DNA from: a virus
Lineage: Duplodnaviria > Heunggongvirae > Uroviricota > Caudoviricetes
Reading direction: 5' to 3' (one strand)
DNA length: 31,892 nt
Virus record (IMG/VR): IMGVR_UViG_2654587686_000018
Location: 1-31,892 of that record
How positions within the stretch are numbered: the stretch's first letter is position 1; every line of letters starts with the position of its first letter. The position numbers and the translations under genes were made by a program. The notes beneath the pieces are model-generated. The model saw only the letters and a program-made list of their open reading frames with translations, was not told the origin of the DNA and searched no databases. Below are positions 1,065 to 31,892 of the stretch, in pieces.

Positions 1065-1192
1065 TGCTTCCCCTTGGAATCTAATCGTTCTTGACAGATT
1101 CCAAAAGCGATCATAACATCACATCGAAAGTTCGCTTTCGGAATCTTCGCTTGTTAACACTATTAATCCTTGCTCACCACAAGCAGATCAAC
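1065..1192. promoter_or_regulatory. immunity switch region: candidate rightward lytic promoter plus operator-like repeats
   Basis: Perfect -35 TTGACA at 1091-1096, 17-bp spacer, -10-like TAACAT at 1114-1119. GGAATCT at 1076-1082 and 1140-1146, its reverse complement AGATTCC at 1096-1102. Palindrome CGAAAG-N4-CTTTCG at 1125-1140. Confidence 0.4.
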
Positions 1193-3322: not shown

Positions 3323-4182
3323 AAACTCCGCTTAAGTGGGTGGGCAGCAAAGCCCGCCTTATGCCGCAGTTGCTTCCCCATCTGCCGGAGGGTAAGCGCC
3401 TGATAGAACCTTTTGCCGGTTCCTGTGCTGTCATGATGAATACGGATTATGACGAGTATCTGATAGCTGATGTGAATCCTGACCTTGTTAATCTGTATAA
3501 GACGATGGCTTATCACACTGATGCATTGCTCATTGAGCTGGAGGCTTTATTTTCTGCCGGTTCATTAGGTGATGAAGAAAACCGGGCAATTTTCTATTAC
3601 GCGGTACGTGATGCCTTCAACCACTCCGGCAAATCCTTTGGTTCTGAATCTGTGGAAGCTGCGGCGCGTTTTCTTTATCTGAACCGTCACTGCTTCAATG
3701 GCCTGTGCCGATACAATCGCCGTGGCCAGTTCAATGTTCCGTTTGGTAAGTACAAAAAAACCTACTTTCCTGCTGATGAAATCCGCGCTTTTGCAGAAAA
3801 AGCGAAACGTGCAACGTTCATTACTGCCCACTATTCAGAAACGCTTGATTTGGTAAGGGACGGGCATGACGTTGTTTATTGTGATCCGCCTTACCTGACT
3901 GATACCGACAATTTCACCGCGTACCATGAGCGCGGTTTTTCTCACATGGATCAGGGGCGGCTGGCGCGTAAGCTGCGCCGCCTGGCTGAGCGTGGGATTA
4001 AGGTTGTCGCGTCAAACAGCGATCTGGAAATGGTGCATTACCTGTATGCAGGATTTGACGCTGTGCGGGTAAATGCCCCACGCAGTGTGGGTGCAGCAGC
4101 TGCAAGCCAGAAAGTTGCCGCAGAGCTGATTCTTAAGTCACCTGCAAACCCGGCGATCGGCGTTAGGGCGGTGGTGGCATGA
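3313..4182 (+). CDS. DNA adenine methyltransferase, Dam-like (N6-adenine, D12 class)
   Basis: N-terminus MAVKTPLKWVGSKARL and motifs EPFAGSCAV and DPPY are characteristic of Dam-family enzymes. No restriction endonuclease gene nearby. Confidence 0.85.
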   Translation: MAVKTPLKWVGSKARLMPQLLPHLPEGKRLIEPFAGSCAVMMNTDYDEYLIADVNPDLVNLYKTMAYHTDALLIELEALFSAGSLGDEENRAIFYYAVRDAFNHSGKSFGSESVEAAARFLYLNRHCFNGLCRYNRRGQFNVPFGKYKKTYFPADEIRAFAEKAKRATFITAHYSETLDLVRDGHDVVYCDPPYLTDTDNFTAYHERGFSHMDQGRLARKLRRLAERGIKVVASNSDLEMVHYLYAGFDAVRVNAPRSVGAAAASQKVAAELILKSPANPAIGVRAVVA

Positions 4183-4392: not shown

Positions 4393-6408
4393 ATGCTGGA
4401 GCCTGGCCAACACCACGTCGTCAATGCCTGGCGGCGTGAAACCTTTGCGCCTGGCACTCCTTCAGATGCAACGATCACAGAACGCCGTTTGTGGGCTGTA
4501 AACCCACTGGATTATGAATGGCGTTCCCAGTACCTGCATGAAATACCCGACTGGTTAGCCGGGTATTTTGGCAACCGTTACGAAAAGCTGCTGGCTGGTC
4601 TTGACGGGCGTCGCCGTGCCAATACATTCCTGCGCAAAACTATCGGCGGGAATGTATTGCCACGTCTGCGCAAAGTGGCTGCACGTTACAAGCTGGCCGC
4701 TGATGCACTTGATCTTCCTTTCGGTAAGTCGCTGGAGCGACTGCCGTCACTTGACCGCCCGGAACTCAAAAAACTGGCTGGCCAGATATCTGGCTGGATC
4801 TCCCAGTCACTTTATGACTTCACCGATCAGTTTGTGGGCAGCACTGACGATGCCGCAGAGCTGCGCCGCCGTACGCTGGAGTCTTACGGCCATTTATGCA
4901 CGTGCTCCCTGATGCTGAACAATCAACCGCCGTACTGGGCTGAACATGAAGCCAATGGCGGACAACTGGAAACGCGTAAGGCTGAATCCGGGATTCTTCG
5001 CATGATGGCACCTGAATGGTGGTATCTGCGTCTTAAGCGGGCGCGTGATATGCAGCGTGAGCATATGGCCATTGCCGTAGGGCAGGTACAGAAAGCCGCC
5101 AGTGCTTATGTGTCACGTAAAACCCTGGGTGAATGGATAGACCAGAAAAAGCGGAACCTTGAGTTCTTTAAAAAGTTTGACCTGCTGAATGATGAAGGGC
5201 TGCGTATTGCACTGGACAGTATGGTGCACCGCAGCGTTGCTAATCCGGCGATCCGTCGCTGTGAGCTAATGGTAAGAATGAGAGGGTTTGAAGATATGGC
5301 CAATGAAGAAGGGCTGGCCGGTGAGTTTTACACCATCACCGCGCCATCACGATTCCATGCGGTACACAGCAAAGGAGGCTTTGTTTCACAATGGGATGGC
5401 TGCACCCCGCAGGACACCCAGCGCTACTTATGTGGCGTATGGGCGAAAGCCCGCGCCGCTATTTCCCGCGCAGGTATCCATGTTTTTGGTTTTCGTGTGG
5501 TAGAGCCTCACCACGATGGGACACCGCACTGGCATATGCTGCTTTTTATGCGTCCTGGTGACGTGGATACCGTGCGCGATATTCTTTGCTATCAAGCCAG
5601 AATTACCGACTCCGAAGAACTGCAAACGCCAAACGCGCTAAAGGCACGTTTCCATGTTGAAGCCATCGATCCCGCTAAAGGTTCGGCTACAGGTTATATC
5701 GCCAAATACATATCCAAAAACATTGATGGATTTGCGCTGGATGGTGAGCAGGATGATGAAACAGGGGAAAATCTGCGGGATATGGCCAAATCCGTTTCTG
5801 CATGGGCTTCACGCTGGCGCATTCGCCAGTTTCAGCAGATTGGTGGTGCGCCGGTGACAGTCTGGCGTGAGCTGCGTCGGTTGCGTGATCAGGTACTGAC
5901 TGACCGCAGAATGGATGCGGTTCTGGCTGCTGCGGATGTTGGGGACTGGGCTGCATACACCCAGGCACAGGGTGGCGCACTGGTTGCCCGCCGTGATCTG
6001 GTTGTTCGTCTGGCTTATGAAATTACAGAGCAGGGCAATGAATATGCAGAGGACGTGCAGCGCGTTCAGGGTGTCTATTCTCCATTGGTTCCAGATTCAG
6101 CGGTATGTACGCGTCTGGTGAAGTGGCAGAAGGTCGCGAAGTTGGCCGAAGCGCCAGCGGAGGCGGGTTTTTCTGGCGGCAACGCCGCCCCTTGGAGTTC
6201 TGTCAATAACTGTACGGAGGGTGGAACCCGCAGACGGTTAAAACTGGAATTGCGAAGCCGGGGTTTTGAAGGTTCTGACGATGAAATAGCCATTCTCATG
6301 CGGGGTAGTGGTTTGAGATTTGGCCAGGCGGCGTTGATTTACCGTAATGGCAGGTTACAGGAGACACGAAACGAGCCAATGCACGAGCTGTGGCCGGGGT
6401 GGTTGTAG
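4393..6408 (+). CDS. replication initiation endonuclease (P2 gpA / 186 RepA-like rolling-circle initiator)
   Basis: HUH-type motif HHDGTPHWHMLLF and catalytic tyrosine motif GYIAKYISKN. Track ORF begins at TTG 4357; the in-frame ATG at 4393 directly follows the upstream stop and is preferred. Confidence 0.85.
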   Translation: MLEPGQHHVVNAWRRETFAPGTPSDATITERRLWAVNPLDYEWRSQYLHEIPDWLAGYFGNRYEKLLAGLDGRRRANTFLRKTIGGNVLPRLRKVAARYKLAADALDLPFGKSLERLPSLDRPELKKLAGQISGWISQSLYDFTDQFVGSTDDAAELRRRTLESYGHLCTCSLMLNNQPPYWAEHEANGGQLETRKAESGILRMMAPEWWYLRLKRARDMQREHMAIAVGQVQKAASAYVSRKTLGEWIDQKKRNLEFFKKFDLLNDEGLRIALDSMVHRSVANPAIRRCELMVRMRGFEDMANEEGLAGEFYTITAPSRFHAVHSKGGFVSQWDGCTPQDTQRYLCGVWAKARAAISRAGIHVFGFRVVEPHHDGTPHWHMLLFMRPGDVDTVRDILCYQARITDSEELQTPNALKARFHVEAIDPAKGSATGYIAKYISKNIDGFALDGEQDDETGENLRDMAKSVSAWASRWRIRQFQQIGGAPVTVWRELRRLRDQVLTDRRMDAVLAAADVGDWAAYTQAQGGALVARRDLVVRLAYEITEQGNEYAEDVQRVQGVYSPLVPDSAVCTRLVKWQKVAKLAEAPAEAGFSGGNAAPWSSVNNCTEGGTRRRLKLELRSRGFEGSDDEIAILMRGSGLRFGQAALIYRNGRLQETRNEPMHELWPGWL

Positions 6409-6486
6409 CCTCGTAAGTCTGTGATACATCACTGTTTGTCAACGAATAGCAGCAAAAATCACTTTCACATTTTGTGCTTAAATGTA

Positions 6487-6506
6487 TACTGTATGAATAT
6501 ACAGTT
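6487..6506. promoter_or_regulatory. LexA (SOS) box
   Basis: TACTGTATGAATATACAGTT is a CTGT-N8-ACAG palindrome close to the E. coli LexA consensus. It overlaps a -10-like TATACT at 6485-6490. Confidence 0.7.
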
Positions 6507-6523
6507 ATTCTGTTTTTAGGAGG

Positions 6524-6742
6524 ATGCTTGTGCAGGATTTGTTTATGGAAACTATCGCATTGCAGCGGATTGCGTTGTTTACCAGGTTGATCGCCAAAAG
6601 TAATTGCACTGGCTGTGAAAAGGACATTGCACTTGCCTGGCTAAGCGAGCTGACTTCAGATCTGGAAAGTAAACTTGATGAATATGAAAGTAAAAACCCC
6701 CGGGAAGGGGGCTTATCAGGCGGCGGGAGTCGCTTTCAGTAG
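6524..6742 (+). CDS. small SOS-regulated protein, candidate Tum-like antirepressor (start ATG 6524 or GTG 6530)
   Basis: ORF immediately downstream of the LexA box with a strong SD AGGAGG at 6518-6523. Function inferred from position and regulation, not sequence identity. Confidence 0.4.
   Translation: MLVQDLFMETIALQRIALFTRLIAKSNCTGCEKDIALAWLSELTSDLESKLDEYESKNPREGGLSGGGSRFQ
6692..6711 (-). terminator. putative intrinsic terminator for the Ogr-like gene
   Basis: CCCCC/GGGGG stem with 5-nt loop at 6697-6711 and an A-run at 6692-6696 (U-run on the minus transcript), 5 nt past the stop at 6716. Confidence 0.4.
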
Positions 6743-6985
6743 GTCTAATGCCATTTGACGCTGATCGGGTGACAGTGCATTCAATATTTTCTGCACCATT
6801 GCATCACCCGTTTTCGCGCTGGGGCTGAGAGTGTGGGAGAACGTCAGATTCATCACAAACGTATGGCCACACTCCACATCTGAACAGGCGCAGTAAATAT
6901 CCGCAATCTGCCGGTGCTTCCGGTTTGTTTTACGAATAACAGCCTTTGAGCCGCATTCCGGGCATTCGATTTTCAGAACTCGCAT
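6716..6985 (-). CDS. Ogr/Delta-family zinc-finger late gene activator
   Basis: CPEC...CACSDVEC cysteine pattern (CxxC-N22-CxCxxxxC) as in P2 Ogr. Start placed at MRVLKIECPEC (ATG 6983-6985) with GGAG SD; the track ORF extends to 7039. Confidence 0.7.
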   Translation of the reverse strand: MRVLKIECPECGSKAVIRKTNRKHRQIADIYCACSDVECGHTFVMNLTFSHTLSPSAKTGDAMVQKILNALSPDQRQMALDLLKATPAA

Positions 6986-7035
6986 ATTCCATGCTCCAGC
7001 TGTTAAATGATGCCTGGATTTTAGCCTTTTTCGCC

Positions 7036-8097
7036 TCATGCCGCATCCTTATCCGTTGATTCTGTGTAACTTAAATCAAAGTGAAGGTGCAGACGTTCCG
7101 GTATTTCGGGATCGTTGTTCACGGCAGTCATAAACCGACGCTGAATAGGCGCTATCTCGCTTTTCTTGTAAATCCTTTCCGCCTTTTCAACATCCCCCAG
7201 GCCAGCTGTGTTCTGCGGAACAATTCCGGCCAGCCCTGCCGGAAAGCGGTGTGCGTTGAGAATGTCCTGTGCGCTGATGTTTTTGATGTTGGCAAATTCA
7301 TCTTTTGCAGAGATATCCCCCATTTCAATAAACTTGATCGCATCCCCATCCCCGCCTGGAATGTTCACCAGAATAGTGGAGAAGTTGCCGATACCTTTGC
7401 TGTCACGCAGCTGCTGTTCAATTTCTTCTTCCATTTCATCCGTCATACTGGGATCGCGCGTGTAGAGAATGCCGCCAGTATGGGCGCCGTTGTGGTAGTA
7501 ACGGCGGCGAAAAATCACGGCTTCGCTGTTAAGCAATGCAGAATGTACACCGCCGATATAGTCGGGCAGCCCGTAAATATGCTGTTGCGGGTCGTACATC
7601 TTGATAAAAATGATATCTTCCTGTGGCCATACCTGCGGTTCCCCGTCCTGCAATACCACATAATCGCCGGGCTGGTCTGTGGCGTTGTCCCTGACTTTAC
7701 GGCGGCGAATATACAGGCCGGGTAAAGGTTCCAGGGCAATCACATCCCCCCATCCGTTGCGGATTTTGCCAATCGCAATATCCCCGAAGGTTGTATAGTC
7801 AAACGCTGCGGCTTCCAGTTGGTCGTAAGTCAGGCCACCGCCCAGATAATCAGACACAATCATATTTTTCCGGGCGTGGATGATGCCGCCATGCTGACCG
7901 TTCAGATTGATAAGCTGTGCCAGTGCCAGCCGGTCAATCGGCTGGGTGAAGTGATCGGCGGCATTGTCGTACCAGATGTCGCGGTAATCCGTGCCGGTGG
8001 TCAGGACGGGTTCCGGTTTGCCGAATGTGATGATGCTCATTTTTTTGGACTTATCGCCGCGCGGGTTGCGCTTAACGAAGCGTTTTTTTTTACTCAT
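7036..8097 (-). CDS. portal protein (P2 gpQ-like)
   Basis: 353 aa; segments YGLPDYIGGVHSALLNSEAVIFRRRYYHNGAHTGG and DISAKDEFANIKNISAQDILNAHRFP resemble P2 Q. Stop overlaps the terminase gene. Confidence 0.9.
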   Translation of the reverse strand: MSKKKRFVKRNPRGDKSKKMSIITFGKPEPVLTTGTDYRDIWYDNAADHFTQPIDRLALAQLINLNGQHGGIIHARKNMIVSDYLGGGLTYDQLEAAAFDYTTFGDIAIGKIRNGWGDVIALEPLPGLYIRRRKVRDNATDQPGDYVVLQDGEPQVWPQEDIIFIKMYDPQQHIYGLPDYIGGVHSALLNSEAVIFRRRYYHNGAHTGGILYTRDPSMTDEMEEEIEQQLRDSKGIGNFSTILVNIPGGDGDAIKFIEMGDISAKDEFANIKNISAQDILNAHRFPAGLAGIVPQNTAGLGDVEKAERIYKKSEIAPIQRRFMTAVNNDPEIPERLHLHFDLSYTESTDKDAA

Positions 8098-9869
8098 GCA
8101 GCCTCTTTCCTTACACCCCAGCGGGATTTCGGTTTATTTTCGTAGTTGAGTGGTTCGTTATGCAGGGCGTGGGTAATCGCCCAGAAAGCCTCCGCGTGGC
8201 CTGTGTCCTGGCTGCGGTCAGCGACAAATGTCATGGCGTTACCGCTTTGCGTGGTGGTGCGGCGTACAGCCATAAAGCTGGCCGGGATCTCTTTCAGGTT
8301 TTTGTCCCATTCGATACGCTGGCTTTCCACCACGTCCGCCGCTTTCAGTACCAGCTGATTTTTCGTGTTCATGTCGTAACGAATGGCGACGGCCACGCGC
8401 ATGGCAAAATGCTGGATGTTGTCAAAAACACCCTGGCCAATACCGGTAACGTCCACTCCCAGATAGGTGAAGTTGTATTTTTTAAACAGGAGTTCGATCT
8501 GCCTGGCCTGATAGCGGAAGTTCATGCCCTTCCAGTTAATGACCTTCAGAACGCGGAATTTCTCTGCGGCGTACATCGGCGGGGCAATAATCACAAAACA
8601 CGACAAATCGCCGCTGCGTGCAGGGTCAAATCCTCCCCATACCGGCCTGTCACCAAATGGCCGCGCAGCGTCCGGGTTGTGATCCTGCCAGGTGTCCACC
8701 TCCACGCCGCAGGCTTCCAGGTCTGAAAAACTGAATACAGAATCCTTGCTGTCCACGAACACGCACATATAAAGCATGTTGAAGGTGGCGGTGTTGTAGC
8801 GGTTGCGCAGCTTCTCGATGTTGGCCAGGTTGAAGCCGCCCGCAATGGCATCCTCCATCGTGATGACATAGCGCCACTGACCATCCGGGCAAAGCCGTCC
8901 GCCGTTGCGCATTTCATCAAAAGACGGGAACTGAGCGGCCGCGCGTTTTTTGCTGCCCTGTTTCCATTCCTCACCCGTCCAGAACGGGTAGGCCTGGTGC
9001 GTTTTGGCCGATGGCGTTGAAAAGTAGGTGGTGCGCCATTTGTCATGGGTGGCCATTGCGCTGGCCACTTCGTTAAGCCTGGCGAAGTTAGGCACCCAGA
9101 AATATTCGTCACAGTACAGGTGGCCACTGTAGGACTGGGCCGTGTTTTTGTTGGTTGAGAGAAAACGCAGTTCAGCGCCGTTGCTGAGGCGGATCGGGTT
9201 GCCGGTCAGCGTGATGCCAAAATACTGTTCTGCAATGTTGACGATGTAAGACCGGAAGTATTCCGCCTGGACTTTGGAGGCAGACAGGAAGATTTGCGGA
9301 TCGCCTGTCATGACCGCGTTTTCAAAGGCTTCAAATGCAAAGTACCAGGTGGCACCGATCTGGCGGCTTTTAAGGATGTTCCTGACCTGCTGGCCAATAT
9401 TCCGGCGCAGGTGTTTCTGGTATTCAAAAAGATGTTCTTCCGCCCAGGTGTCAAAATCCGCCTGAGTCAGAGAAGAAATATCGTTTTTCCTGTTTTTGCG
9501 TTTGGGGCGCGGTTCATCGCTGTTGCTGTCCCGCGCAGCTGCCTGACTGTTACTCTGGCCGCTGGCCATTTTTTCTTTATGCTTATTGCTTTGAGCACGC
9601 AGCTTTGTCGCATGGGCAATCAGCATGTCCATTTCTTTCAGGTCGAGATCGGTTTTATTATCGCGGCTGGCCAGCAGCTGGTAGCGGCGTTCAATTGCCT
9701 CCTCTGTACTTTCAAAGCTGAGTAAATCCGCCCAGCTGTATTTCTCAGCCCAGTAGTAAACGATCCGCGCATTCGGCAGATTTAATTCTGATGCAATTTC
9801 TTTTGGCGTATAGCGGCGCAAATAAAGTGCGCGGACAACGCCTTTTAGTTCTTCTGAGTATTTAGCCAT
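8094..9869 (-). CDS. terminase large (ATPase) subunit (P2 gpP-like)
   Basis: 591 aa, adjacent to and overlapping the portal gene, divergent from the scaffold gene as in P2. Confidence 0.9.
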   Translation of the reverse strand: MAKYSEELKGVVRALYLRRYTPKEIASELNLPNARIVYYWAEKYSWADLLSFESTEEAIERRYQLLASRDNKTDLDLKEMDMLIAHATKLRAQSNKHKEKMASGQSNSQAAARDSNSDEPRPKRKNRKNDISSLTQADFDTWAEEHLFEYQKHLRRNIGQQVRNILKSRQIGATWYFAFEAFENAVMTGDPQIFLSASKVQAEYFRSYIVNIAEQYFGITLTGNPIRLSNGAELRFLSTNKNTAQSYSGHLYCDEYFWVPNFARLNEVASAMATHDKWRTTYFSTPSAKTHQAYPFWTGEEWKQGSKKRAAAQFPSFDEMRNGGRLCPDGQWRYVITMEDAIAGGFNLANIEKLRNRYNTATFNMLYMCVFVDSKDSVFSFSDLEACGVEVDTWQDHNPDAARPFGDRPVWGGFDPARSGDLSCFVIIAPPMYAAEKFRVLKVINWKGMNFRYQARQIELLFKKYNFTYLGVDVTGIGQGVFDNIQHFAMRVAVAIRYDMNTKNQLVLKAADVVESQRIEWDKNLKEIPASFMAVRRTTTQSGNAMTFVADRSQDTGHAEAFWAITHALHNEPLNYENKPKSRWGVRKEAA

Positions 9870-9923
9870 GCGGATAATTATGCCGTGGCTGTTATGAAAA
9901 AACGGTGGTGTTAATTCGCGTCT

Positions 9924-9948
9924 GTTCGGTAATACGTGATAACCGAAC
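9924..9948. promoter_or_regulatory. dyad-symmetric element in the divergent late promoter region (candidate Ogr-type activator site)
   Basis: GTTCGGT-N11-ACCGAAC between the leftward terminase and rightward scaffold genes; resembles the TGT-N12-ACA half-site arrangement of P2 late promoters. Confidence 0.35.
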
Positions 9949-10030
9949 TGTTCAGAATAAAGCGTGATGCGGTGGTGGTTTTATTTGGCAATAATTGATT
10001 TGCAGCGTCGGTGAATAAATCAGGGGGGAT

Positions 10031-27185: not shown

Positions 27186-27196
27186 CCATCCCATCA

Positions 27197-27227
27197 GCCC
27201 GCGCATAATGCGGGCTTTGTCGTTTGC
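27197..27227 (+). terminator. intrinsic terminator after the tail operon
   Basis: GCCCGC / GCGGGC stem at 27197-27215 followed by a T-rich tract (TTTGTCGTTTG). Confidence 0.55.
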
Positions 27228-27290
27228 TCAGTTCCTTGTTAGGATTGTTGCGATAGGATTATTGCTGACTCAAAGGATAAGAAAAGGGAT

Positions 27291-27623
27291 ATGAAAAATT
27301 TCATTATGTTAGCTGTAGGCGCAGCAGTTTCATTCAATGTGTTAGCCGCTGAAGTTTTTACTGTGCCAACGGATACGAAGGCTAGCTATACGGTCTTAGA
27401 GAAGACGCGTACCGGTGATATGGCTACGATAACAACCAAGAGAGAGGGACCATCTGGAGTGTCATATTCTAAGCGCTTGTACGACTGTACGGCCTCGACG
27501 GTCAAGTATCTTGGAAGCGGTGACACTATAGAGCAAATGAATGGCTCAGCACCAGATCCAAATATGGCACCTATAATTGACCGTTCAATTGCATACTATG
27601 TTGGTCAGAAAGCCTGCCGATAA
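27291..27623 (+). CDS. moron: small secreted/periplasmic protein of unknown function (110 aa)
   Basis: Signal-peptide-like N-terminus MKNFIMLAVGAAVSFNVLA-AEV. Two cysteines in the mature part. AT-richer than the tail genes. Bracketed by two terminators. Confidence 0.6.
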   Translation: MKNFIMLAVGAAVSFNVLAAEVFTVPTDTKASYTVLEKTRTGDMATITTKREGPSGVSYSKRLYDCTASTVKYLGSGDTIEQMNGSAPDPNMAPIIDRSIAYYVGQKACR

Positions 27624-27665
27624 CCATAGCTTCATATCAGTTGATATAAATTGAGTATTCCGCTA

Positions 27666-27688
27666 ACCCGCATAATGCGGGTTTTTTT
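27666..27688 (+). terminator. intrinsic terminator after the moron
   Basis: ACCCGC-ATAAT-GCGGGT hairpin followed by TTTTTTT. Confidence 0.7.
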
Positions 27689-28191
27689 GTGCCTGTTAAC
27701 AGGCGGCACAGAACGCACACTGTACGCATTGCAATGCTCAGATACCACACGAGACACATCAATAGGATCAAGTGCACAGCGAAGCACTGACGGCTCTACA
27801 TGCTGACAAAAGAAATACTTCACAGACAAAAACGGCACTACACCGCACCCGCCTGCGGTTTCTGGATCGATAAAATTTTTCAGTTTTCTTTTCCTACAAA
27901 CCAGACCGCCGGACAGCGCCAGTTCTGGCTGATTGCGGGAAATCTCCAACTGAAAAAATTGAAAGGAATTTCAGTGATTTTCAGTAAAAAGGATCTCTCA
28001 AGAAATTGAAGGATTGTGTAAGTTACAGATAAATAATGGAAAAAATAATTTTAGATGATTGCTTGGATGCTAATAGCGCAGGGAATTATTTATAACGAAT
28101 AGCCCGCAGTGTTAAGCTGGGGGCGGGCTAGAGTATGCATGTTGGCATTTTACCTGCTGAAAAAATGAAGAATCTAACGTCGTAAATAAAA

Positions 28192-28554
28192 TTACTCTGT
28201 TTTAGGGCAGACTATTCCTTCTTGTCTCATTTTGGCTATAAAACCAACCCCATCCCCTGTAAGGTGACTTCCATCATCTTCCAGGATACCGTCATCTCTG
28301 CCGGCACTGAGTGGAGCGCTATAAATTTCCTTATGGAACAACAGGCAAGCTCTCCCAACACCTTGCTTTTTGCATTTATCAAGGCCTAAATTCGTAATGT
28401 GATACAGTACATAAGGTGGATGTGGAAGCTCAACCTCTCTAAACACAATGCTACCAACGGCCTTGCCATCAAGACGAACTTCAATTTCAAGGCCTGAGTG
28501 ATTAACTAGTTGATACTCAACACCTCTTTTTGATTCGAAAATAGAAGTTTCCAT
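28192..28554 (-). CDS. hypothetical protein, possibly a minimal GNAT-like fold (second gene of an AT-rich cassette)
   Basis: 120-aa ORF with SD GGGAG about 9 nt upstream. Segment KKQGVGRACLL resembles the acetyl-CoA-binding motif A (Q/R-x-x-G-x-G/A) of GNAT enzymes, but the protein is short for that fold. Confidence 0.5.
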   Translation of the reverse strand: METSIFESKRGVEYQLVNHSGLEIEVRLDGKAVGSIVFREVELPHPPYVLYHITNLGLDKCKKQGVGRACLLFHKEIYSAPLSAGRDDGILEDDGSHLTGDGVGFIAKMRQEGIVCPKTE

Positions 28555-28582
28555 ATCTTTTCTCCCTATATGTAAGATAAAT

Positions 28583-28981
28583 TTATTTCTCTTCGCACTC
28601 CTGCTTAGTTTTGTTATTGATAGATATTGCTGCGCATTTGTCTAGTAATAACATGCACTTATCAATATCATCTGCTTTTCTGAGTTTTACTCGTGTTACA
28701 CCTTGGTTGTTGTCAAGTGTGGAACATATCATTTCAATTTCTATGTCATTTCGATTGAATAATCCCATAATAGTTTTAGCTACCTCTCTGCTTTTTTCTA
28801 CAATATCAAACACTAAGGATAGCTTATCTGGTGCTTTTTCAGAAAAACAAAGCACTTTGCTCAGAGGCAAATTATTATGAGAAAAGTGTCCTTTGACTTC
28901 CTCTAGAAGTTCTTGGGAGGTGTAGATGGTGATTCCTGCGAATTGTCCTAGGTGGAGAGCATTTTGTCTTGTTCTGGTCAT
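28583..28981 (-). CDS. hypothetical protein (first gene of an AT-rich two-gene cassette)
   Basis: 132-aa ORF with SD AAGGA about 7 nt upstream; 28-bp gap to the downstream gene; no family recognised. Confidence 0.5.
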   Translation of the reverse strand: MTRTRQNALHLGQFAGITIYTSQELLEEVKGHFSHNNLPLSKVLCFSEKAPDKLSLVFDIVEKSREVAKTIMGLFNRNDIEIEMICSTLDNNQGVTRVKLRKADDIDKCMLLLDKCAAISINNKTKQECEEK

Positions 28982-29117
28982 GAAGAATCCTTGAACAAAT
29001 TGTTATCAAGATTTGTTATTGATGTCGGCAGAGAAAAATGTGTCGCCACTTTGCCGCCACAGGTTAGATTGAAGAGTTTTAACTATCTGATTTGTATAGG
29101 GGATGATAACAGGCAAC

Positions 29118-29160
29118 AAAAAACCCATCAACCTTGAACCGAAATGGCGGGGTTGATGGG
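29118..29160 (-). terminator. putative terminator downstream of ybjL
   Basis: 10-bp inverted repeat CCCATCAACC / GGTTGATGGG at 29124-29160 (long loop) with AAAAAA on the plus strand at 29118-29123 (U-run on the minus transcript). Confidence 0.35.
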
Positions 29161-29272
29161 CTCCACAAAATGGGGACATCAAAGAAAAGCAGTGGCACTA
29201 ATTAAGACTGATGCCCTGCGGAAAAGTTCTGCGGTTGTGCAAAAAAATTTCATTTTCAGGGCAACTTCAGTT

Positions 29273-30958
29273 TTATCCTAATCCTGGCCATACCATGACG
29301 ATGATTGTCCCTGCCAGCGTCAGCAGGACGTTGGCGATTGCATAGGTGCCCGCATAGCCCAGCGCCGGGATGTTACTGCGAGCTGTATCACTGATGATCT
29401 CCATTGCCGGCGCGCAGGTGCGTGCGCCCATCATTGCGCCGAACAACAGTGCGCGGTTCATTCGCAATACATAAGCACCGAACAAGAAACAGATAACCAC
29501 GGGCACCAGACTGACAATCAATCCGGCAATCAACATTTGACCGCCAATCGCGCCCAGGCCGTTATTAATACCGCTACCGGCGCTCAGACCAACGCCTGCC
29601 ATAAACACCATCAAGCCGAACTCTTTCACCATGCTTAATGCACCTTGCGGAATGTAACCGAAGGTCGGGTGGTTAGCACGCATAAAGCCCAGCATAATTC
29701 CGGCGAATAACAACCCGGCAGCGTTCCCCATGCCGAAACTGAATGTGCTGAACTGGAAGGTGATCATCCCGATCATCAGCCCAATAACAAAGAAGGCGCA
29801 GAATGCCAGCAGGTCAGTGACCTGGCTGTGAATCGAGATAAAGCCGATGCGATCGGCGATGGTTTTTACGCGGCGGGCATCGCCGCTGACTTGTAAAACG
29901 TCACCTTTGTTAAGCACGACGTTGTCATCTATCGGCATCTCAATCTGGCTACGAATGACGCGGTTAAGGAAGCAACCGTGATCGGTCAACTTCAGTTGTG
30001 CGAGACGTTTGCCCACGGCGTTATGGTTTTTAACGACCACTTCTTCAGTGACGATACGCATGTCGAGAAGGTCACGATCGAAAACTTCTTTGCCGTTACG
30101 GAAGCTGGGATCGAGTCGTGCGTGGGCGTCGGGATAGCCTACCAACGCTATTTCATCGCCCATTTGTAGCACAGCATCACCGTCTGGATTCGCCAGAATC
30201 CCGTTACGTCGAATACGTTCAATGTAGCAGCCAGTTTGTCGATAAATACCCAGTTCACGCAGATTTTTGCCGTCGGTCCAGGCCACCAGCTCCGGGCCGA
30301 CGCGGTAGGCGCGGATCACCGGTAAATAAACCTTACGGTTGGCATCAGTGTCCAGACCACGTTCGCGGGCGATTTGCTGGGCGCTGGTCTGTAAGTCCTG
30401 ATGCTGCAATTTCGGCAAGTAACGCGCACCAACAATCAAACTCACCAGACCGATTAAATAGGTTAAGGCATACCCGAGGCTCAGATTATCCAGTGCCAGT
30501 GAGAGCTGCCTGCTTTCCATGCCGGAATGACGCAGTGTATCGCCAGCACCGACCAGAACCGGTGTCGACGTCATAGAGCCAGCTAACATACCGGCCGTCA
30601 GGCCAATATCCCAGCCAAACAGCTTACCTAACCCTAAGGCGATCACCAGCGCACTGCCAACCATCACCAGTGCTAACATTAGGTAATTTTTCCCATCGCG
30701 AAAAAAAATGGAAAAAAAGTTCGGTCCGGCTTCGACCCCGACGCAGAAAATAAACAGCATAAAGCCAAGATTAAGCGCGTCGGTGTTAATGCTGAAATGT
30801 TGTTGGCCTAATAACAGCGATACGACTAAAACGCCAATGGAATTACCCAGTTGGATCGAACCAAGTCGTAATTTCCCGAGACATAGCCCAAGCGCGAGGA
30901 CCACAAATAATAACAGAATGTAATTCCCATTTAACAATTCGGCGACGTTTATATTCAC
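29273..30958 (-). CDS. ybjL: putative transport protein YbjL (AAE-family transporter)
   Basis: 561 aa; N-terminus [33 protein letters not shown] matches E. coli YbjL as I recall it; multiple membrane helices. Confidence 0.9.
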
Positions 30959-31227
30959 GGAGGCTAACTTCTTGTTTACTAGTAAGCTGTTGAAAGAAAT
31001 GGTAATTTACGATAATGTTTTTTACCAGAATTCAGGGCGCAGATTCATTCAGCGCACCTAAACGATAGTAAAGTAACAATATATTTTACTAGTGTAATCA
31101 CATTAGGTATCAACGGCTATATGAATTGCGTTGGCCTATATTAGCATGGAATGCGAAGCGGCTTTATCTTACTGAACGCCACACTGGCGAAAATTGTGTT
31201 CGATAGACGCAGTGTCAGGAGGAACGA

Positions 31228-31605
31228 GTGAAACATAAACAACGTTGGGCGGGGGCAATTTGCTGTTTTGTCCTCTTCATTGTGGTGTGTCTTTTTCTGG
31301 CGACGCACATGAAAGGCGCTTTTCGGGCTGCCGGGCATCCTGAAATCGGTTTGCTATTTTTCATTCTTCCTGGTGCAGTTGCCAGCTTCTTTTCACATCG
31401 TAGAGAAGTCCTGAAACCTCTGTTTGGCGCAATGCTGGCGGCACCCTGTTCGATGCTCATTATGCGGCTGTTTTTTTCACCGACGCGCTCATTCTGGCAA
31501 GAGCTGGCATGGTTATTAAGTGCGGTGTTCTGGTGTGCGCTGGGGGCATTGTGTTTCTTATTTATCAGTAGTTTGTTTAAACCACAGCACAGAAAAAATC
31601 AATAA
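31228..31605 (+). CDS. ybjM: inner membrane protein YbjM
   Basis: 125-aa hydrophobic protein MKHKQRWAGAICCFVLFIVV..., GTG start; conserved position between ybjL and grxA. Confidence 0.85.
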   Translation: MKHKQRWAGAICCFVLFIVVCLFLATHMKGAFRAAGHPEIGLLFFILPGAVASFFSHRREVLKPLFGAMLAAPCSMLIMRLFFSPTRSFWQELAWLLSAVFWCALGALCFLFISSLFKPQHRKNQ

Positions 31606-31606
31606 A

Positions 31607-31623
31607 GCCCTCAACGCGAGGGC
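31607..31623. terminator. hairpin between convergent ybjM and grxA
   Basis: GCCCTC-AACGC-GAGGGC stem-loop in the 29-bp gap between the two convergent stops. Confidence 0.45.
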
Positions 31624-31634
31624 TTGTCAGACGA

Positions 31635-31892
31635 TCAGGCGTCCAGATTCTCTTTCACCCATGCAGCAAAATCGGTATAGCCGCCGATATGTTGCTGATC
31701 GACAAAAATCTGCGGCACGGTTTCTACGGGTTTTCCTGCCTTTTGTTGTAGATCTTCTTTAGTGATCCCTTCCGCACGAATATCTACATACTGATACTGG
31801 AAATCATCGCGTTCATTGCTCAATTTCTCAGCCAGATCTTTTGCACGCCCACAGTAAGGGCAACCCGGACGACCAAAAATAACGGTTTGCAT
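31635..31892 (-). CDS. grxA: glutaredoxin 1
   Basis: 85 aa with the CPYC active site (MQTVIFGRPGCPYCGRAKDL); the start codon is the last three bases of the window. Confidence 0.9.
   Translation of the reverse strand: MQTVIFGRPGCPYCGRAKDLAEKLSNERDDFQYQYVDIRAEGITKEDLQQKAGKPVETVPQIFVDQQHIGGYTDFAAWVKENLDA

What the first reader, a model, noticed from the sequence alone, without database searches (positions are those of the whole stretch)
6692..7039. Ogr/Delta-type zinc-finger activator placed next to the portal gene, converging on the SOS-regulated ORF
In P2 the late activator ogr lies beyond the tail genes. Here a CxxC...CxCxxxxC protein is encoded on the minus strand immediately before the portal gene, and its 3' end overlaps the 3' end of the convergent tum-like ORF by 27 bp. 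The putative ogr terminator hairpin (6697-6711) lies inside the tum-like coding sequence, which suggests possible transcriptional interference between SOS-driven and late-activator transcription.
Basis: partly seen in the sequence, partly recalled or inferred. Interest (0 to 1): 0.4.

Follow-up and report, generated by a model that had tools for sequence, protein, structure and literature searches.

The report
Late-gene activator gene beside phage portal gene
A P2-family prophage of E. coli carries its zinc-finger late-gene activator right after the portal gene, tail-to-tail with a DNA-damage-controlled antirepressor gene; this layout is real but is the normal one for a known branch of these phages, so it is ordinary.

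Summary
ORF 6716-7039 (-) is an Ogr/Delta zinc-finger protein (Pfam PF04606, 70.8 bits), identical to RefSeq WP_012602735.1. It follows the portal gene, and its 3' end overlaps a convergent small ORF by 27 bp. The hairpin at 6697-6711 is a minus-strand intrinsic terminator inside that ORF.

The small ORF has a 186 p95-type promoter with a LexA box (6487-6506). It is homologous to the N-terminal part of the 186 antirepressor Tum, and the prophage repressor is 186-CI-like with no self-cleavage domain.

The placement is unusual only relative to P2 and 186. The rep / ogr / portal / terminase order occurs in four enterobacterial Peduoviridae genera inspected here, in Vibrio K139, Aeromonas phiO18P and Haemophilus HP1, and in 28 of 5426 E. 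coli genomes. It is already noted in the literature for K139.

Conserved extras:
- a TAAAAT hexamer 38 nt before the internal ATG, a probable ogr promoter -10;
- an open N-terminal extension whose ATG overlaps the portal stop codon;
- one dyad, TTCGG-N13-CCGAA (9925-9947), between the divergent late operons.

Transcriptional interference is possible, because no convincing plus-strand terminator exists, but it is untested. The overlap is more simply two operon ends sharing one terminator. This is a new member of a known kind, of low to moderate interest.

The parts
6716..7039 (-). Ogr/Delta-type zinc-finger gene, long form (107 aa). Its ATG overlaps the portal stop codon (ATGA).
   Evidence: ORF list. 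Pfam PF04606 at 9.1e-20, 70.8 bits against a cut-off of 26.3. Identical to the PGAP-annotated WP_012602735.1. The extension is open in every locus with an adjacent portal gene and shows weak codon periodicity.
6716..6985 (-). Short form (89 aa) starting MRVLKIECPEC, the form shared with K139 orf13 and phiO18P gp19. GGAG lies at 6994-6997.
   Evidence: Annotated at this length in ESSI2_ev040. phrog_603 'transcriptional regulator' at 2e-40.
6827..6967 (-). Zinc-finger domain (residues 25-71 of the long form) with four Cys in the spacing C-x2-C-x22-C-x4-C.
   Evidence: Pfam match covers profile positions 1-47 of 47. The four Cys are invariant in an alignment that includes 186 B.
7018..7023 (-). 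TAAAAT hexamer, the probable -10 element of an ogr-specific promoter. It is embedded in the N-terminal extension, 38 nt upstream of the internal ATG.
   Evidence: Present at a fixed -38 in 39 distinct loci and at -44 in 11 more. The flanking codon positions vary (xTA = Leu/Val/Ile; Txx = Ser/Phe/Tyr) while the hexamer does not. Its function as a promoter is inferred.
6686..6714 (-). Intrinsic terminator of the terminase-portal-ogr transcription unit. The core hairpin is 6697-6711 and is followed on the minus strand by TTTTTACTTTC.
   Evidence: Terminator scan and RNA fold. A hairpin plus T-run sits right after the ogr stop in about 30 related loci, with quite different stem sequences.
6530..6742 (+). 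Small SOS-controlled gene (70 aa from GTG 6530; PGAP uses ATG 6545, 65 aa). It is a homologue of the N-terminal region of the 186 antirepressor Tum. Its last 14-15 codons run through the terminator hairpin and 27 nt of ogr.
   Evidence: phrog_698 at 3e-14 over residues 1-51. hhalign against Tum residues 5-43: probability 95.4%, E 1.8e-8. Tum hits the same PHROGs. Conserved in four genera. 101 clusters of mostly 50-90 aa proteins. SD AGGAGG at 6518-6523 lies 6 nt before the GTG.
6716..6742 (.). 27-bp convergent overlap of the two coding regions. The plus-strand stop TAG is the complement of a Leu codon (CTA) in the Ogr motif DLLK.
   Evidence: The overlap is 24-30 nt in 25 of 32 loci and absent in 7.
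6464..6506 (+). p95-type SOS promoter: -35 TTCACA (6464-6469), 17 nt spacer, -10 TACTGT (6487-6492). The LexA box 6487-6506 overlaps the -10.
   Evidence: Sequence. Unique LexA-box match with 0.00 expected by chance. Same hexamers and the same register as the annotated 186 p95 and LexA site. The box is conserved in six loci.
9925..9947 (.). Dyad TTCGGTAATACGTGATAACCGAA between the divergent terminase and scaffold genes. It is the candidate binding site of the zinc-finger activator. The -10-like hexamers at 9877-9882 (leftward) and 9990-9995 (rightward) each lie 42 nt from the dyad arms.
   Evidence: Conserved in ev040, SC477, ESSI-2, YenM324 and K139, with a half-site in HP1. Exact in 30 of 73 genome loci at that position, against 3 exact matches in about 420 kb elsewhere. 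It is the only exact copy in the window. Binding is inferred.
7036..8097 (-). Portal gene (gpQ-like), immediately upstream of ogr in the same transcription unit.
   Evidence: Pfam Phage_portal at 3.6e-18. No terminator was found between the portal gene and ogr.

Best explanation
The ORF encodes the late-gene transcription activator of a 186-like, HP1/K139-architecture Peduoviridae prophage integrated next to the host genes ybjL and ybjM.

**The activator gene.** It is the last gene of the leftward late packaging operon (terminase, portal, ogr). That operon ends at the intrinsic terminator 6686-6714. I propose that ogr is expressed in two ways:
- First, from a weak promoter of its own inside the portal-ogr junction. 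The -10 would be TAAAAT at 7018-7023, giving the 89-aa form through the GGAG/ATG at 6985.
- Later, by read-through from the Ogr-dependent late promoter upstream of terminase. This could give the 107-aa form by ATGA coupling to portal and would close a positive feedback loop.

The logic matches P2 ogr and 186 B, which sit at the 3' end of a late operon with a promoter of their own. Here the late operon is a different one.

**Target site.** The protein most likely binds the single dyad TTCGG-N13-CCGAA at 9925-9947. From there it would activate both divergent late promoters.

**The facing gene.** It is a LexA-repressed, stand-alone homologue of the Tum N-terminal region. It presumably inactivates the non-cleavable 186-type CI repressor after DNA damage.

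**The overlap.** The two units meet tail-to-tail at the boundary between the early/SOS side and the late side. The small ORF has no stop codon before the terminator, so it runs on for 27 nt into ogr. This is most simply genome compaction with no dedicated regulatory role.

**Shown:** family membership, coordinates, and conservation of every element.
**Inferred:** promoter activity, DNA binding, antirepressor activity, and the two protein forms.
For: **Identity of the zinc-finger protein**
- Pfam Ogr_Delta at 70.8 bits.
- Four Cys aligned with 186 B.
- phrog_603.

**Context**
- gpA, portal and terminase domains.
- The repressor is 31% identical to 186 CI over its full length. It carries Phage_CI_repr and Phage_CI_C and no S24 peptidase domain.
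- Cox/Apl-like and CII-like genes are present.

**Same gene order elsewhere**
- Four Peduoviridae genera inspected here, plus K139, phiO18P and HP1.
- 28 of 5426 E. coli genomes.
- About 50 further Enterobacterales loci with an adjacent portal gene.
- The literature states this for K139 and Smhb1 (PMC8537503).

**Expression signals**
- The terminator is conserved as a structure with unrelated stem sequences.
- No terminator lies between portal and ogr.
- TAAAAT shows a DNA-level conservation signature.
- The N-terminal extension is open in all loci and shows third-position periodicity: entropy 1.02, 0.96 and 1.36 for codon positions 1, 2 and 3.

**Candidate binding site**
- The dyad is conserved from E. 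coli to Vibrio K139 and strongly enriched at this position.
- There is a single copy in the window.
- The geometry is symmetric, 42 nt on each side, in both the window and ESSI-2.

**Tum homology and the SOS promoter**
-.
- The function of Tum and p95 in 186 is described in PMC7708051.

**The overlap is not obligatory**
- 7 of 32 loci lack it.
- One homologue has a frameshifted tail.
- In SW3 a methylase gene faces ogr instead.
Against: - No member of this K139/HP1-type Ogr subfamily has been tested for late-gene activation, as far as I could find. The function rests on family membership and context.
- Identity to 186 B is only 26% over 39 residues.
- The putative ogr promoter has no recognisable -35 element, and the sigma-70 scan found nothing in 6300-7300.
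- The conserved dyad differs from the P2/186 activator sites shown. It would sit about -66, not -55, from the predicted start sites (predicted start sites inferred from the -10-like hexamers).
- The fact that the small ORF reads through the hairpin in most loci, whatever the stem sequence, could mean the read-through matters. The compaction explanation does not predict that.
Confidence: 0.7

Rival explanations
1. After DNA damage the strong LexA-controlled promoter fires. Its transcript is not terminated at the hairpin, so it runs antisense through ogr and across the ogr promoter. RNA polymerase collisions, promoter occlusion or RNA pairing would then hold back Ogr, and so late genes, while the SOS signal lasts. 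Conversely, late transcription is stopped at the hairpin before it can run into the SOS gene.
For: - The two units are convergent, with predicted start sites about 510 bp apart (inferred from the promoter coordinates).
- On the plus strand the hairpin is followed by CTTATCAGG, with no T-run.
- Ribosomes would translate through the hairpin.
- The only plus-strand terminator-like site, 6910-6924, is weak: fold z-score -0.47.
- The convergent LexA-box-ORF / ogr arrangement is conserved in many Enterobacterales.
- A LexA box also precedes the gene facing the zinc-finger gene in K139.
Against: - There are no expression data.
- 7 of 32 loci end the small ORF before ogr.
- Relatives such as SW3 and phiO18P have unrelated genes facing ogr. 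Ogr control therefore cannot depend on an SOS transcript in general.
- Rho-dependent termination after the stop codon at 6742 cannot be excluded; the C/G ratio of 0.9-1.7 is uninformative.
- In an infection without SOS the promoter is off, so any effect would be limited to induction.
Confidence: 0.2
2. The zinc-finger protein is not the late activator. It would be a small zinc-ribbon protein with another role, such as restriction alleviation like Lar or a packaging accessory factor. Late transcription would be controlled by something else.
For: - Weak sub-threshold Pfam and NCBIfam matches to Lar-type and other zinc ribbons.
- No experimental work on this subfamily was found.
- The candidate operator differs from the P2/186 activator sites.
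Against: - The Ogr_Delta score is far above its cut-off, while every other match is below its own cut-off.
- None of the other proteins scanned in the window matched Ogr_Delta, and the tail-int region where P2/186 carry ogr/B holds no ogr gene in ev040.
- The gene co-occurs with the conserved dyad in the divergent late promoter region across distant hosts.
Confidence: 0.06
3. The small plus-strand ORF, or at least its overlap with ogr, is not real coding sequence. It would be an open frame left by G+C-rich terminator and ogr sequence.
For: - The last 14 residues lie outside the PHROG profile match, which covers residues 1-51.
- Many family members match only query positions 1-50.
- One homologue has a frameshifted tail.
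Against: - The core of the ORF is clearly a gene. It is conserved at protein level across four genera with divergent DNA.
- It has SD spacing to a conserved GTG, a PHROG family and Tum homology.
- No in-frame stop codon occurs before 6742, so translation would be expected to run through the tail; what is doubtful is whether the tail is needed, not whether it is made.
Confidence: 0.04

Closest known systems
Vibrio phage K139 orf13 ('zinc-finger protein') and its homologues in Kappa, Smhb1, Aeromonas phiO18P gp19, Pasteurella F108 and Haemophilus HP1
   Same: - 57% identity to K139 orf13 and 47% to the phiO18P protein.
- Same position, downstream of the portal gene and facing the replication side. 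This is described in PMC8537503.
- Same conserved motifs, YCAC..ECGHTFV and SHTLSPSA.
- Same TTCGG-N14-CCGAA dyad between the divergent late genes of K139.
- In K139 a convergent gene with a LexA box faces the zinc-finger gene, and a terminator is annotated inside its 3' end.
   Different: - In K139 an extra ORF (orf14) and a 70-nt spacer with a predicted promoter separate portal from the zinc-finger gene. There is no N-terminal extension there.
- In the window clade the gene abuts portal with an ATGA overlap.
- The facing K139 gene orf12 is not detectably related to the Tum-like ORF: hhalign probability 2%.
P2 Ogr, 186 B and P4 Delta (founding members of Pfam Ogr_Delta)
   Same: - Same Pfam family and the same four-Cys spacing.
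- Same kind of phage.
- Same logic: the gene sits at the 3' end of a late operon, has a promoter of its own, and is followed by a terminator. The 186 annotation says tB terminates 'transcription from pB and late promoter'.
- One activator site is shared by the divergent P and O promoters.
   Different: - Only 26% identity to 186 B over 39 residues.
- 186 was not among the tblastn hits at E <= 1e-3 (inferred from the organism counts).
- The gene follows the packaging operon rather than the tail operon.
- The C-terminal half differs.
- The candidate operator TTCGG-N13/14-CCGAA is unlike the annotated 186 B sites GTTGTG...TCCA and lies one helical turn further upstream.
- No CI-operator-like sequence was found at its promoter, unlike 186 pB.
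Phage 186 SOS operon: p95, LexA site and the tum antirepressor
   Same: - Same location, after the replication gene A.
- Same -35 TTCACA and -10 TACTGT, with the LexA box starting at the -10.
- Homology to Tum residues 5-43.
- The cognate repressor is of the 186 CI type.
   Different: - The protein has 65-70 residues against 146 in Tum.
- The C-terminal DinI-like part of Tum is absent.
- There is no orf97, no t95 terminators and no cos site downstream. The gene ends inside ogr instead.
- Plain BLASTP finds no similarity.

Membership tests
Ogr/Delta zinc-finger late activators (Pfam PF04606) | Match to the family profile above the curated threshold, over the whole domain | tested here: met
   70.8 bits against a cut-off of 26.3, covering profile positions 1-47 of 47.
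Ogr/Delta zinc-finger late activators (Pfam PF04606) | Four zinc-ligand cysteines in the spacing C-x2-C-x22-C-x4-C, in a protein of about 70-90 residues | tested here: met
   C8, C11, C34 and C39 of the 89-aa form are invariant and aligned with 186 B. C32 is extra and is not conserved.
Ogr/Delta zinc-finger late activators (Pfam PF04606) | Encoded in a P2-family phage with gpP, gpQ, gpO and gpN-type late genes and divergent P/O promoters | tested here: met
Ogr/Delta zinc-finger late activators (Pfam PF04606) | Late promoters carry an upstream dyad element, of the kind annotated as the activator site in P2 (pO/pP) and 186 (B protein sites); by my own recollection these are partial dyads near -55 | tested here: inconclusive
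   A conserved dyad is present at the equivalent place. Its sequence, TTCGG-N13-CCGAA, differs from the P2/186 sites, and it is centred about -66 from the predicted start sites.
Ogr/Delta zinc-finger late activators (Pfam PF04606) | Activates late transcription through contact with the RNA polymerase alpha subunit | not testable with these tools
   This needs reporter assays and genetics.
186 Tum-type SOS antirepressor | LexA-repressed promoter of the p95 type | tested here: met
   TTCACA-17-TACTGT with an overlapping LexA box, which is unique in the window.
186 Tum-type SOS antirepressor | Sequence homology to Tum | tested here: met
   Homology to the N-terminal region only. hhalign probability 95.4%, E 1.8e-8, over Tum residues 5-43. 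Both proteins hit phrog_698 and phrog_8554. BLASTP was negative. A control with K139 orf12 gave 2%.
186 Tum-type SOS antirepressor | C-terminal DinI-like domain | tested here: not met
   The protein ends after about 51 conserved residues plus an unconserved tail. The Tum C-terminal part has no counterpart. I therefore do not file it as a full Tum orthologue but as a stand-alone Tum-N-domain protein.
186 Tum-type SOS antirepressor | Partner repressor of the 186 CI type that is not self-cleaving | tested here: met
   31% identity over the full length. Phage_CI_repr plus Phage_CI_C, with no S24 peptidase domain.
186 Tum-type SOS antirepressor | Binds CI and blocks its DNA binding | not testable with these tools
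   This needs biochemical or in vivo induction tests.

The most novel reading that the evidence does not exclude
The conserved tail-to-tail junction would be a regulatory device. SOS-driven transcription, not stopped by the one-directional terminator, would run antisense through ogr and over its TAAAAT promoter. This would time or gate late-gene activation during prophage induction. The gene would also yield two activator forms: a short form from its own promoter and a long form coupled to portal from the late transcript, giving an early trigger and a late feedback form.
Probability: 0.15. Interest if true: 0.5.

Novelty: new member of a known kind. Interest (0 to 1): 0.25.

Why it matters
The direct value is in annotation.
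- The reading fixes the identity of three small elements (ogr, a short Tum-like antirepressor and their shared terminator) in a prophage type found in many Enterobacterales.
- It shows that the ogr position is a lineage trait, not an oddity.

For specialists it offers concrete, testable sequence predictions for a never-tested Ogr subfamily:
- an operator, TTCGG-N13/14-CCGAA;
- a promoter -10 buried in coding sequence;
- possible long and short protein forms.

It also offers a compact natural case in which convergent SOS and late transcription could be measured. None of this changes current understanding of P2-family regulation unless the interference or two-form ideas prove true.

Tried and rejected
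**Locating cos**
- I searched the window for the P2 cos sequence with up to 3 mismatches and found nothing.
- HP1-type phages keep cos next to attP (PMC2771037). I did not locate cos in the window.

**Identifying the small ORF**
- BLASTP against 186 Tum gave no hit. Pfam and NCBIfam gave nothing above threshold. Only profile methods showed the relationship.
- K139 orf12 compared with the small-ORF profile is not related.
- The word-indexed protein search returned only 17 close 'hypothetical' relatives.

**Regulation of ogr**
- I looked for 186-style CI operators at the ogr promoter, using k-mers shared with the pR/pL switch region and GGAATC(T) half-sites. None lies near 6980-7120.
- The sigma-70 consensus scan of 6300-7300 gave no hits at its threshold. 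Both proposed promoters are therefore weaker than consensus.

**Other late promoters**
- I searched the window for further copies of the late-promoter dyad. Only 9925-9947 matches exactly. The near-matches lie inside genes and look like chance.

**Fate of the plus-strand transcript**
- For a plus-strand terminator after the small ORF there is only the weak 6910-6924 candidate, whose fold is no better than shuffles.
- A C-over-G bias suggesting a Rho site was inconclusive.
- An Rfam scan of 6300-7200 found nothing meaningful.

**Other dead ends**
- The literature search on ESSI-2 was unhelpful.
- The locus search with an alignment that included 186 B failed for lack of a conserved stretch. I repeated it with closer sequences.
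Full report
**1. The observation**

- ORF 6716..7039 on the minus strand encodes 107 residues. It begins with an ATG that overlaps the stop codon of the portal gene 7036..8097.
- An in-frame ATG at 6985, preceded by GGAG at 6994-6997, gives an 89-residue form.
- A plus-strand ORF 6524..6742 converges on it and shares 6716-6742, which is 27 bp.
- The hairpin CCCCCGGGAAGGGGG at 6697-6711 is reported by the terminator scan as a minus-strand terminator. It has an 8-pair stem at 6714..6694 followed by a T-rich tail (fold). It lies inside the plus-strand ORF.
- A LexA box, TACTGTATGAATATACAGTT, sits at 6487-6506. It is the only such match in the window, with none expected by chance.

**2. What the zinc-finger gene is**

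- The protein matches Pfam Ogr_Delta (PF04606) over the whole 47-position profile at 70.8 bits, against a cut-off of 26.3. Every other zinc-ribbon family scores below its own cut-off.
- In the short-form numbering, C8, C11, C34 and C39 give C-x2-C-x22-C-x4-C. They align with the four Cys of the 186 activator B. C32 is extra and not conserved.
- The protein is identical to the PGAP-annotated 'ogr/Delta-like zinc finger family protein' WP_012602735.1 in E. coli chromosomes.
- The surrounding genes are a P2-family set: replication protein A, portal, large terminase, scaffold and capsid. The lysogeny module is 186-like, with a Cox/Apl-like gene, a CII-like gene and a repressor 31% identical to 186 CI over its full length.
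- That repressor has the Phage_CI_repr and Phage_CI_C domains and no self-cleavage domain.
- The right end of the window is host DNA (ybjL- and ybjM-type genes), so this is an integrated prophage.

**3. The placement is a lineage trait**

The order rep / (cargo) / ogr / portal / terminase, with ogr on the same strand as portal, occurs widely.
- It is found in Quadragintavirus (ESSI2_ev040, 91% DNA identity), Seongnamvirus ESSI-2, Tresduoquattuorvirus YenM324 and Irrigatiovirus SI7/SW3. The ev239 lineage matched at the same record position, but I did not inspect its gene order.
- It is found in 28 of 5426 complete E. coli genomes.
- The closest relatives outside the enterobacteria are K139 orf13 at 57% identity (annotated 'zinc-finger protein'), phiO18P gp19 at 47%, and Pasteurella F108. 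Haemophilus HP1 has an unannotated reading frame in the same place. All lie just downstream of the portal gene and face the replication side.
- A paper on the Salinivibrio prophage Smhb1 says this explicitly. [quoted passage not shown]
- In HP1 the cos site lies next to attP, not after the portal gene (PMC2771037). This fits with there being no P2-type cos sequence in the window. I did not locate cos in this prophage.
- A scan of one genome per species returned 80 loci from Enterobacterales and Vibrio. In about 50 of them a recognisable portal gene ends 50-56 nt before the short-form ATG.

**4. How ogr is probably expressed (inferred)**

- No terminator separates portal from ogr, and a terminator follows ogr directly. 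Late transcription from the promoter upstream of terminase should therefore read through ogr.
- That terminator is conserved as a structure. About 30 related loci have a strong hairpin plus T-run right after the ogr stop, with quite different stems: CCCCC/GGGGG, GAGCCACT/AGTGGCTT, ACCACCG/CGGTGGT and GCCTCC/GGAGGC.
- Inside the 54-nt stretch between the portal stop and the short-form ATG, the hexamer TAAAAT lies at a fixed distance, 38 nt before the ATG, in 39 distinct sequences. It lies at 44 nt in 11 more.
- In the extension reading frame the hexamer spans xTA-AAA-Txx. The first base of the first codon varies, giving Leu, Val or Ile. The second base of the last codon varies, giving Ser, Phe or Tyr. 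The hexamer itself never changes. That is the signature of a constraint on the DNA rather than the protein. I read it as the -10 element of an ogr-specific promoter.
- The -35 region is poor, and the consensus scan did not call a promoter. This assignment is therefore a prediction.
- The in-frame extension back to the ATG that overlaps the portal stop is open in all of these loci, despite strong sequence divergence. It shows the weak third-position excess expected of coding sequence: entropy 1.02, 0.96 and 1.36 for codon positions 1, 2 and 3, much like the portal tail.
- Both a short form (own promoter, GGAG and ATG 6985) and a long form (coupled to portal on the late transcript) are therefore plausible. 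I cannot decide between them.
- The arrangement reproduces the logic of 186 B. The 186 record annotates pB plus a terminator tB that ends 'transcription from pB and late promoter'. Here the gene is attached to the packaging operon instead of the tail operon.

**5. The likely target site (inferred)**

- Between the divergent terminase and scaffold genes there is one perfect dyad, GTTCGGT-N11-ACCGAAC, at 9924-9948. Its core is TTCGG-N13-CCGAA at 9925-9947.
- The same dyad, with 13-14 nt between the arms, occurs at the same place in ev040, SC477, ESSI-2, YenM324 and K139. HP1 has a half-site.
- In the genome loci it is exact in 30 of 73 loci, and within one mismatch in 39 of 73, in the 260 nt upstream of terminase. 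There are only 3 exact matches in the remaining roughly 420 kb.
- It is the only exact copy in the window. This fits a layout with one leftward and one very long rightward late operon.
- The -10-like hexamers ATTATG (9877-9882, leftward) and AATAAT (9990-9995, rightward) each lie 42 nt from the dyad arms, both in the window and in ESSI-2.
- The site differs in sequence from the annotated P2 and 186 activator sites. It would be centred about one helical turn further upstream.
- Binding by the zinc-finger protein is inferred from co-occurrence only.

**6. The facing gene**

- The promoter is TTCACA-17 nt-TACTGT, with the LexA box starting at the -10. The annotated 186 p95 is TTCACA-18 nt-TACTGT with its LexA site in the same register.
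- The best start is GTG 6530, 6 nt after AGGAGG. It is conserved in relatives and gives the shared N-terminus x-D-L-L/F. PGAP uses ATG 6545.
- Pfam and NCBIfam find nothing, and BLASTP against Tum finds nothing.
- Residues 1-51 match phrog_698 (3e-14) and phrog_8554. 186 Tum residues 4-44 match the same two families.
- A profile of the small ORFs aligns with Tum residues 5-43 at 95.4% probability, E 1.8e-8. A control with K139 orf12 gave 2%.
- An exhaustive profile search found 101 clusters, almost all of 50-90 residues, typically matching only the first 50 or so positions.
- The gene is therefore a stand-alone homologue of the Tum N-terminal region, without the DinI-like C-terminal part.
- In 186, Tum is the LexA-controlled antirepressor that inactivates CI (PMC7708051). 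Given the 186-type, non-cleavable repressor here, the same role is the natural inference, but it is untested.

**7. The overlap and the interference idea**

- In all six loci first compared, the small ORF runs through the hairpin. It stops at a TAG or TAA that is the complement of a Leu codon in the Ogr motif DLLK.
- In the wider set, 25 of 32 loci with the small ORF overlap ogr by 24-30 nt, whatever the stem sequence. In 7 loci the ORF ends earlier.
- The tail lies outside the family profile. One homologue has it in another frame. In SW3, phiO18P and HP1 other genes face ogr.
- I therefore regard the overlap as compaction at the meeting point of two transcription units that share one terminator. 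That terminator works for the ogr strand.
- On the plus strand the hairpin has no T-run, and the next terminator-like site (6910-6924) is weak. SOS transcripts may well continue antisense into ogr and over its promoter.
Nothing here tests it, and I give it about 0.2.

**8. Verdict**

The 'unusual placement' is the known K139/HP1-type layout. The Tum-like label is right for the N-terminal domain only. The interference hypothesis remains open.

This is a new member of a known kind. The modestly new points are the sequence-level predictions: the operator, the buried -10, the two possible protein forms, and the short Tum family. Interest is 0.25.

Noticed in passing
window 9867-9883 (minus strand): The conserved -10-like GCATAAT lies only 6-7 nt upstream of the large-terminase ATG (9869) in the window, ESSI-2, YenM324 and SW3, and no Shine-Dalgarno sequence is visible. 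This suggests a leaderless or nearly leaderless terminase mRNA, unlike P2, where the P transcript has a 23-nt leader.
   Followed up: partly
L013 (HP1, U24159) about 3440-3715: HP1 has an unannotated Ogr-like reading frame just after its portal gene orf15. The N-terminal CxxC part and the rest lie in different frames, so the record has either a frameshift or a sequencing error.
   Followed up: no
L012 (K139, AF125163) about 4020-4045 and 3437-3455: The predicted promoter P12 of K139 orf12, the gene facing the zinc-finger gene, contains a LexA box TACTGTATATTAATACAGTG. The predicted P13 region also contains CTGTACAAAAACACAG. Neither is annotated as a LexA site.
   Followed up: no
window 6409-6690 compared with E. 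coli relatives: In 26 of the 28 matching E. coli genomes, DNA identity above about 85% begins only at window position 6688-6695, which is exactly at the terminator. The small ORF to its left is a diverged allele with only about 45% protein identity. The terminator therefore marks a recombination or mosaic boundary.
   Followed up: partly
window 1074-1104: The inverted repeat TTGGAATCT-N13-AGATTCCAA brackets the -35 TTGACA of the probable early rightward promoter, between the CI-like and Cox-like genes. It is a likely CI operator. No copy lies near ogr.
   Followed up: partly
window 27186-31892: Past the last tail gene there is a terminator-like hairpin (about 27198-27220, seen by eye). Four small ORFs with no Pfam match follow, then host genes of the ybjL (Asp-Al_Ex/TrkA_C) and ybjM type. 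The right prophage boundary, and by analogy with HP1 perhaps cos, lies in 27186-29270.
   Followed up: no
L015, L048, L084 (genome contigs): Near-identical copies of this enterobacterial prophage junction sit on contigs labelled as Bacillota, Bacillales and Ilyobacter metagenome-assembled genomes. These are probably binning contamination.
   Followed up: no
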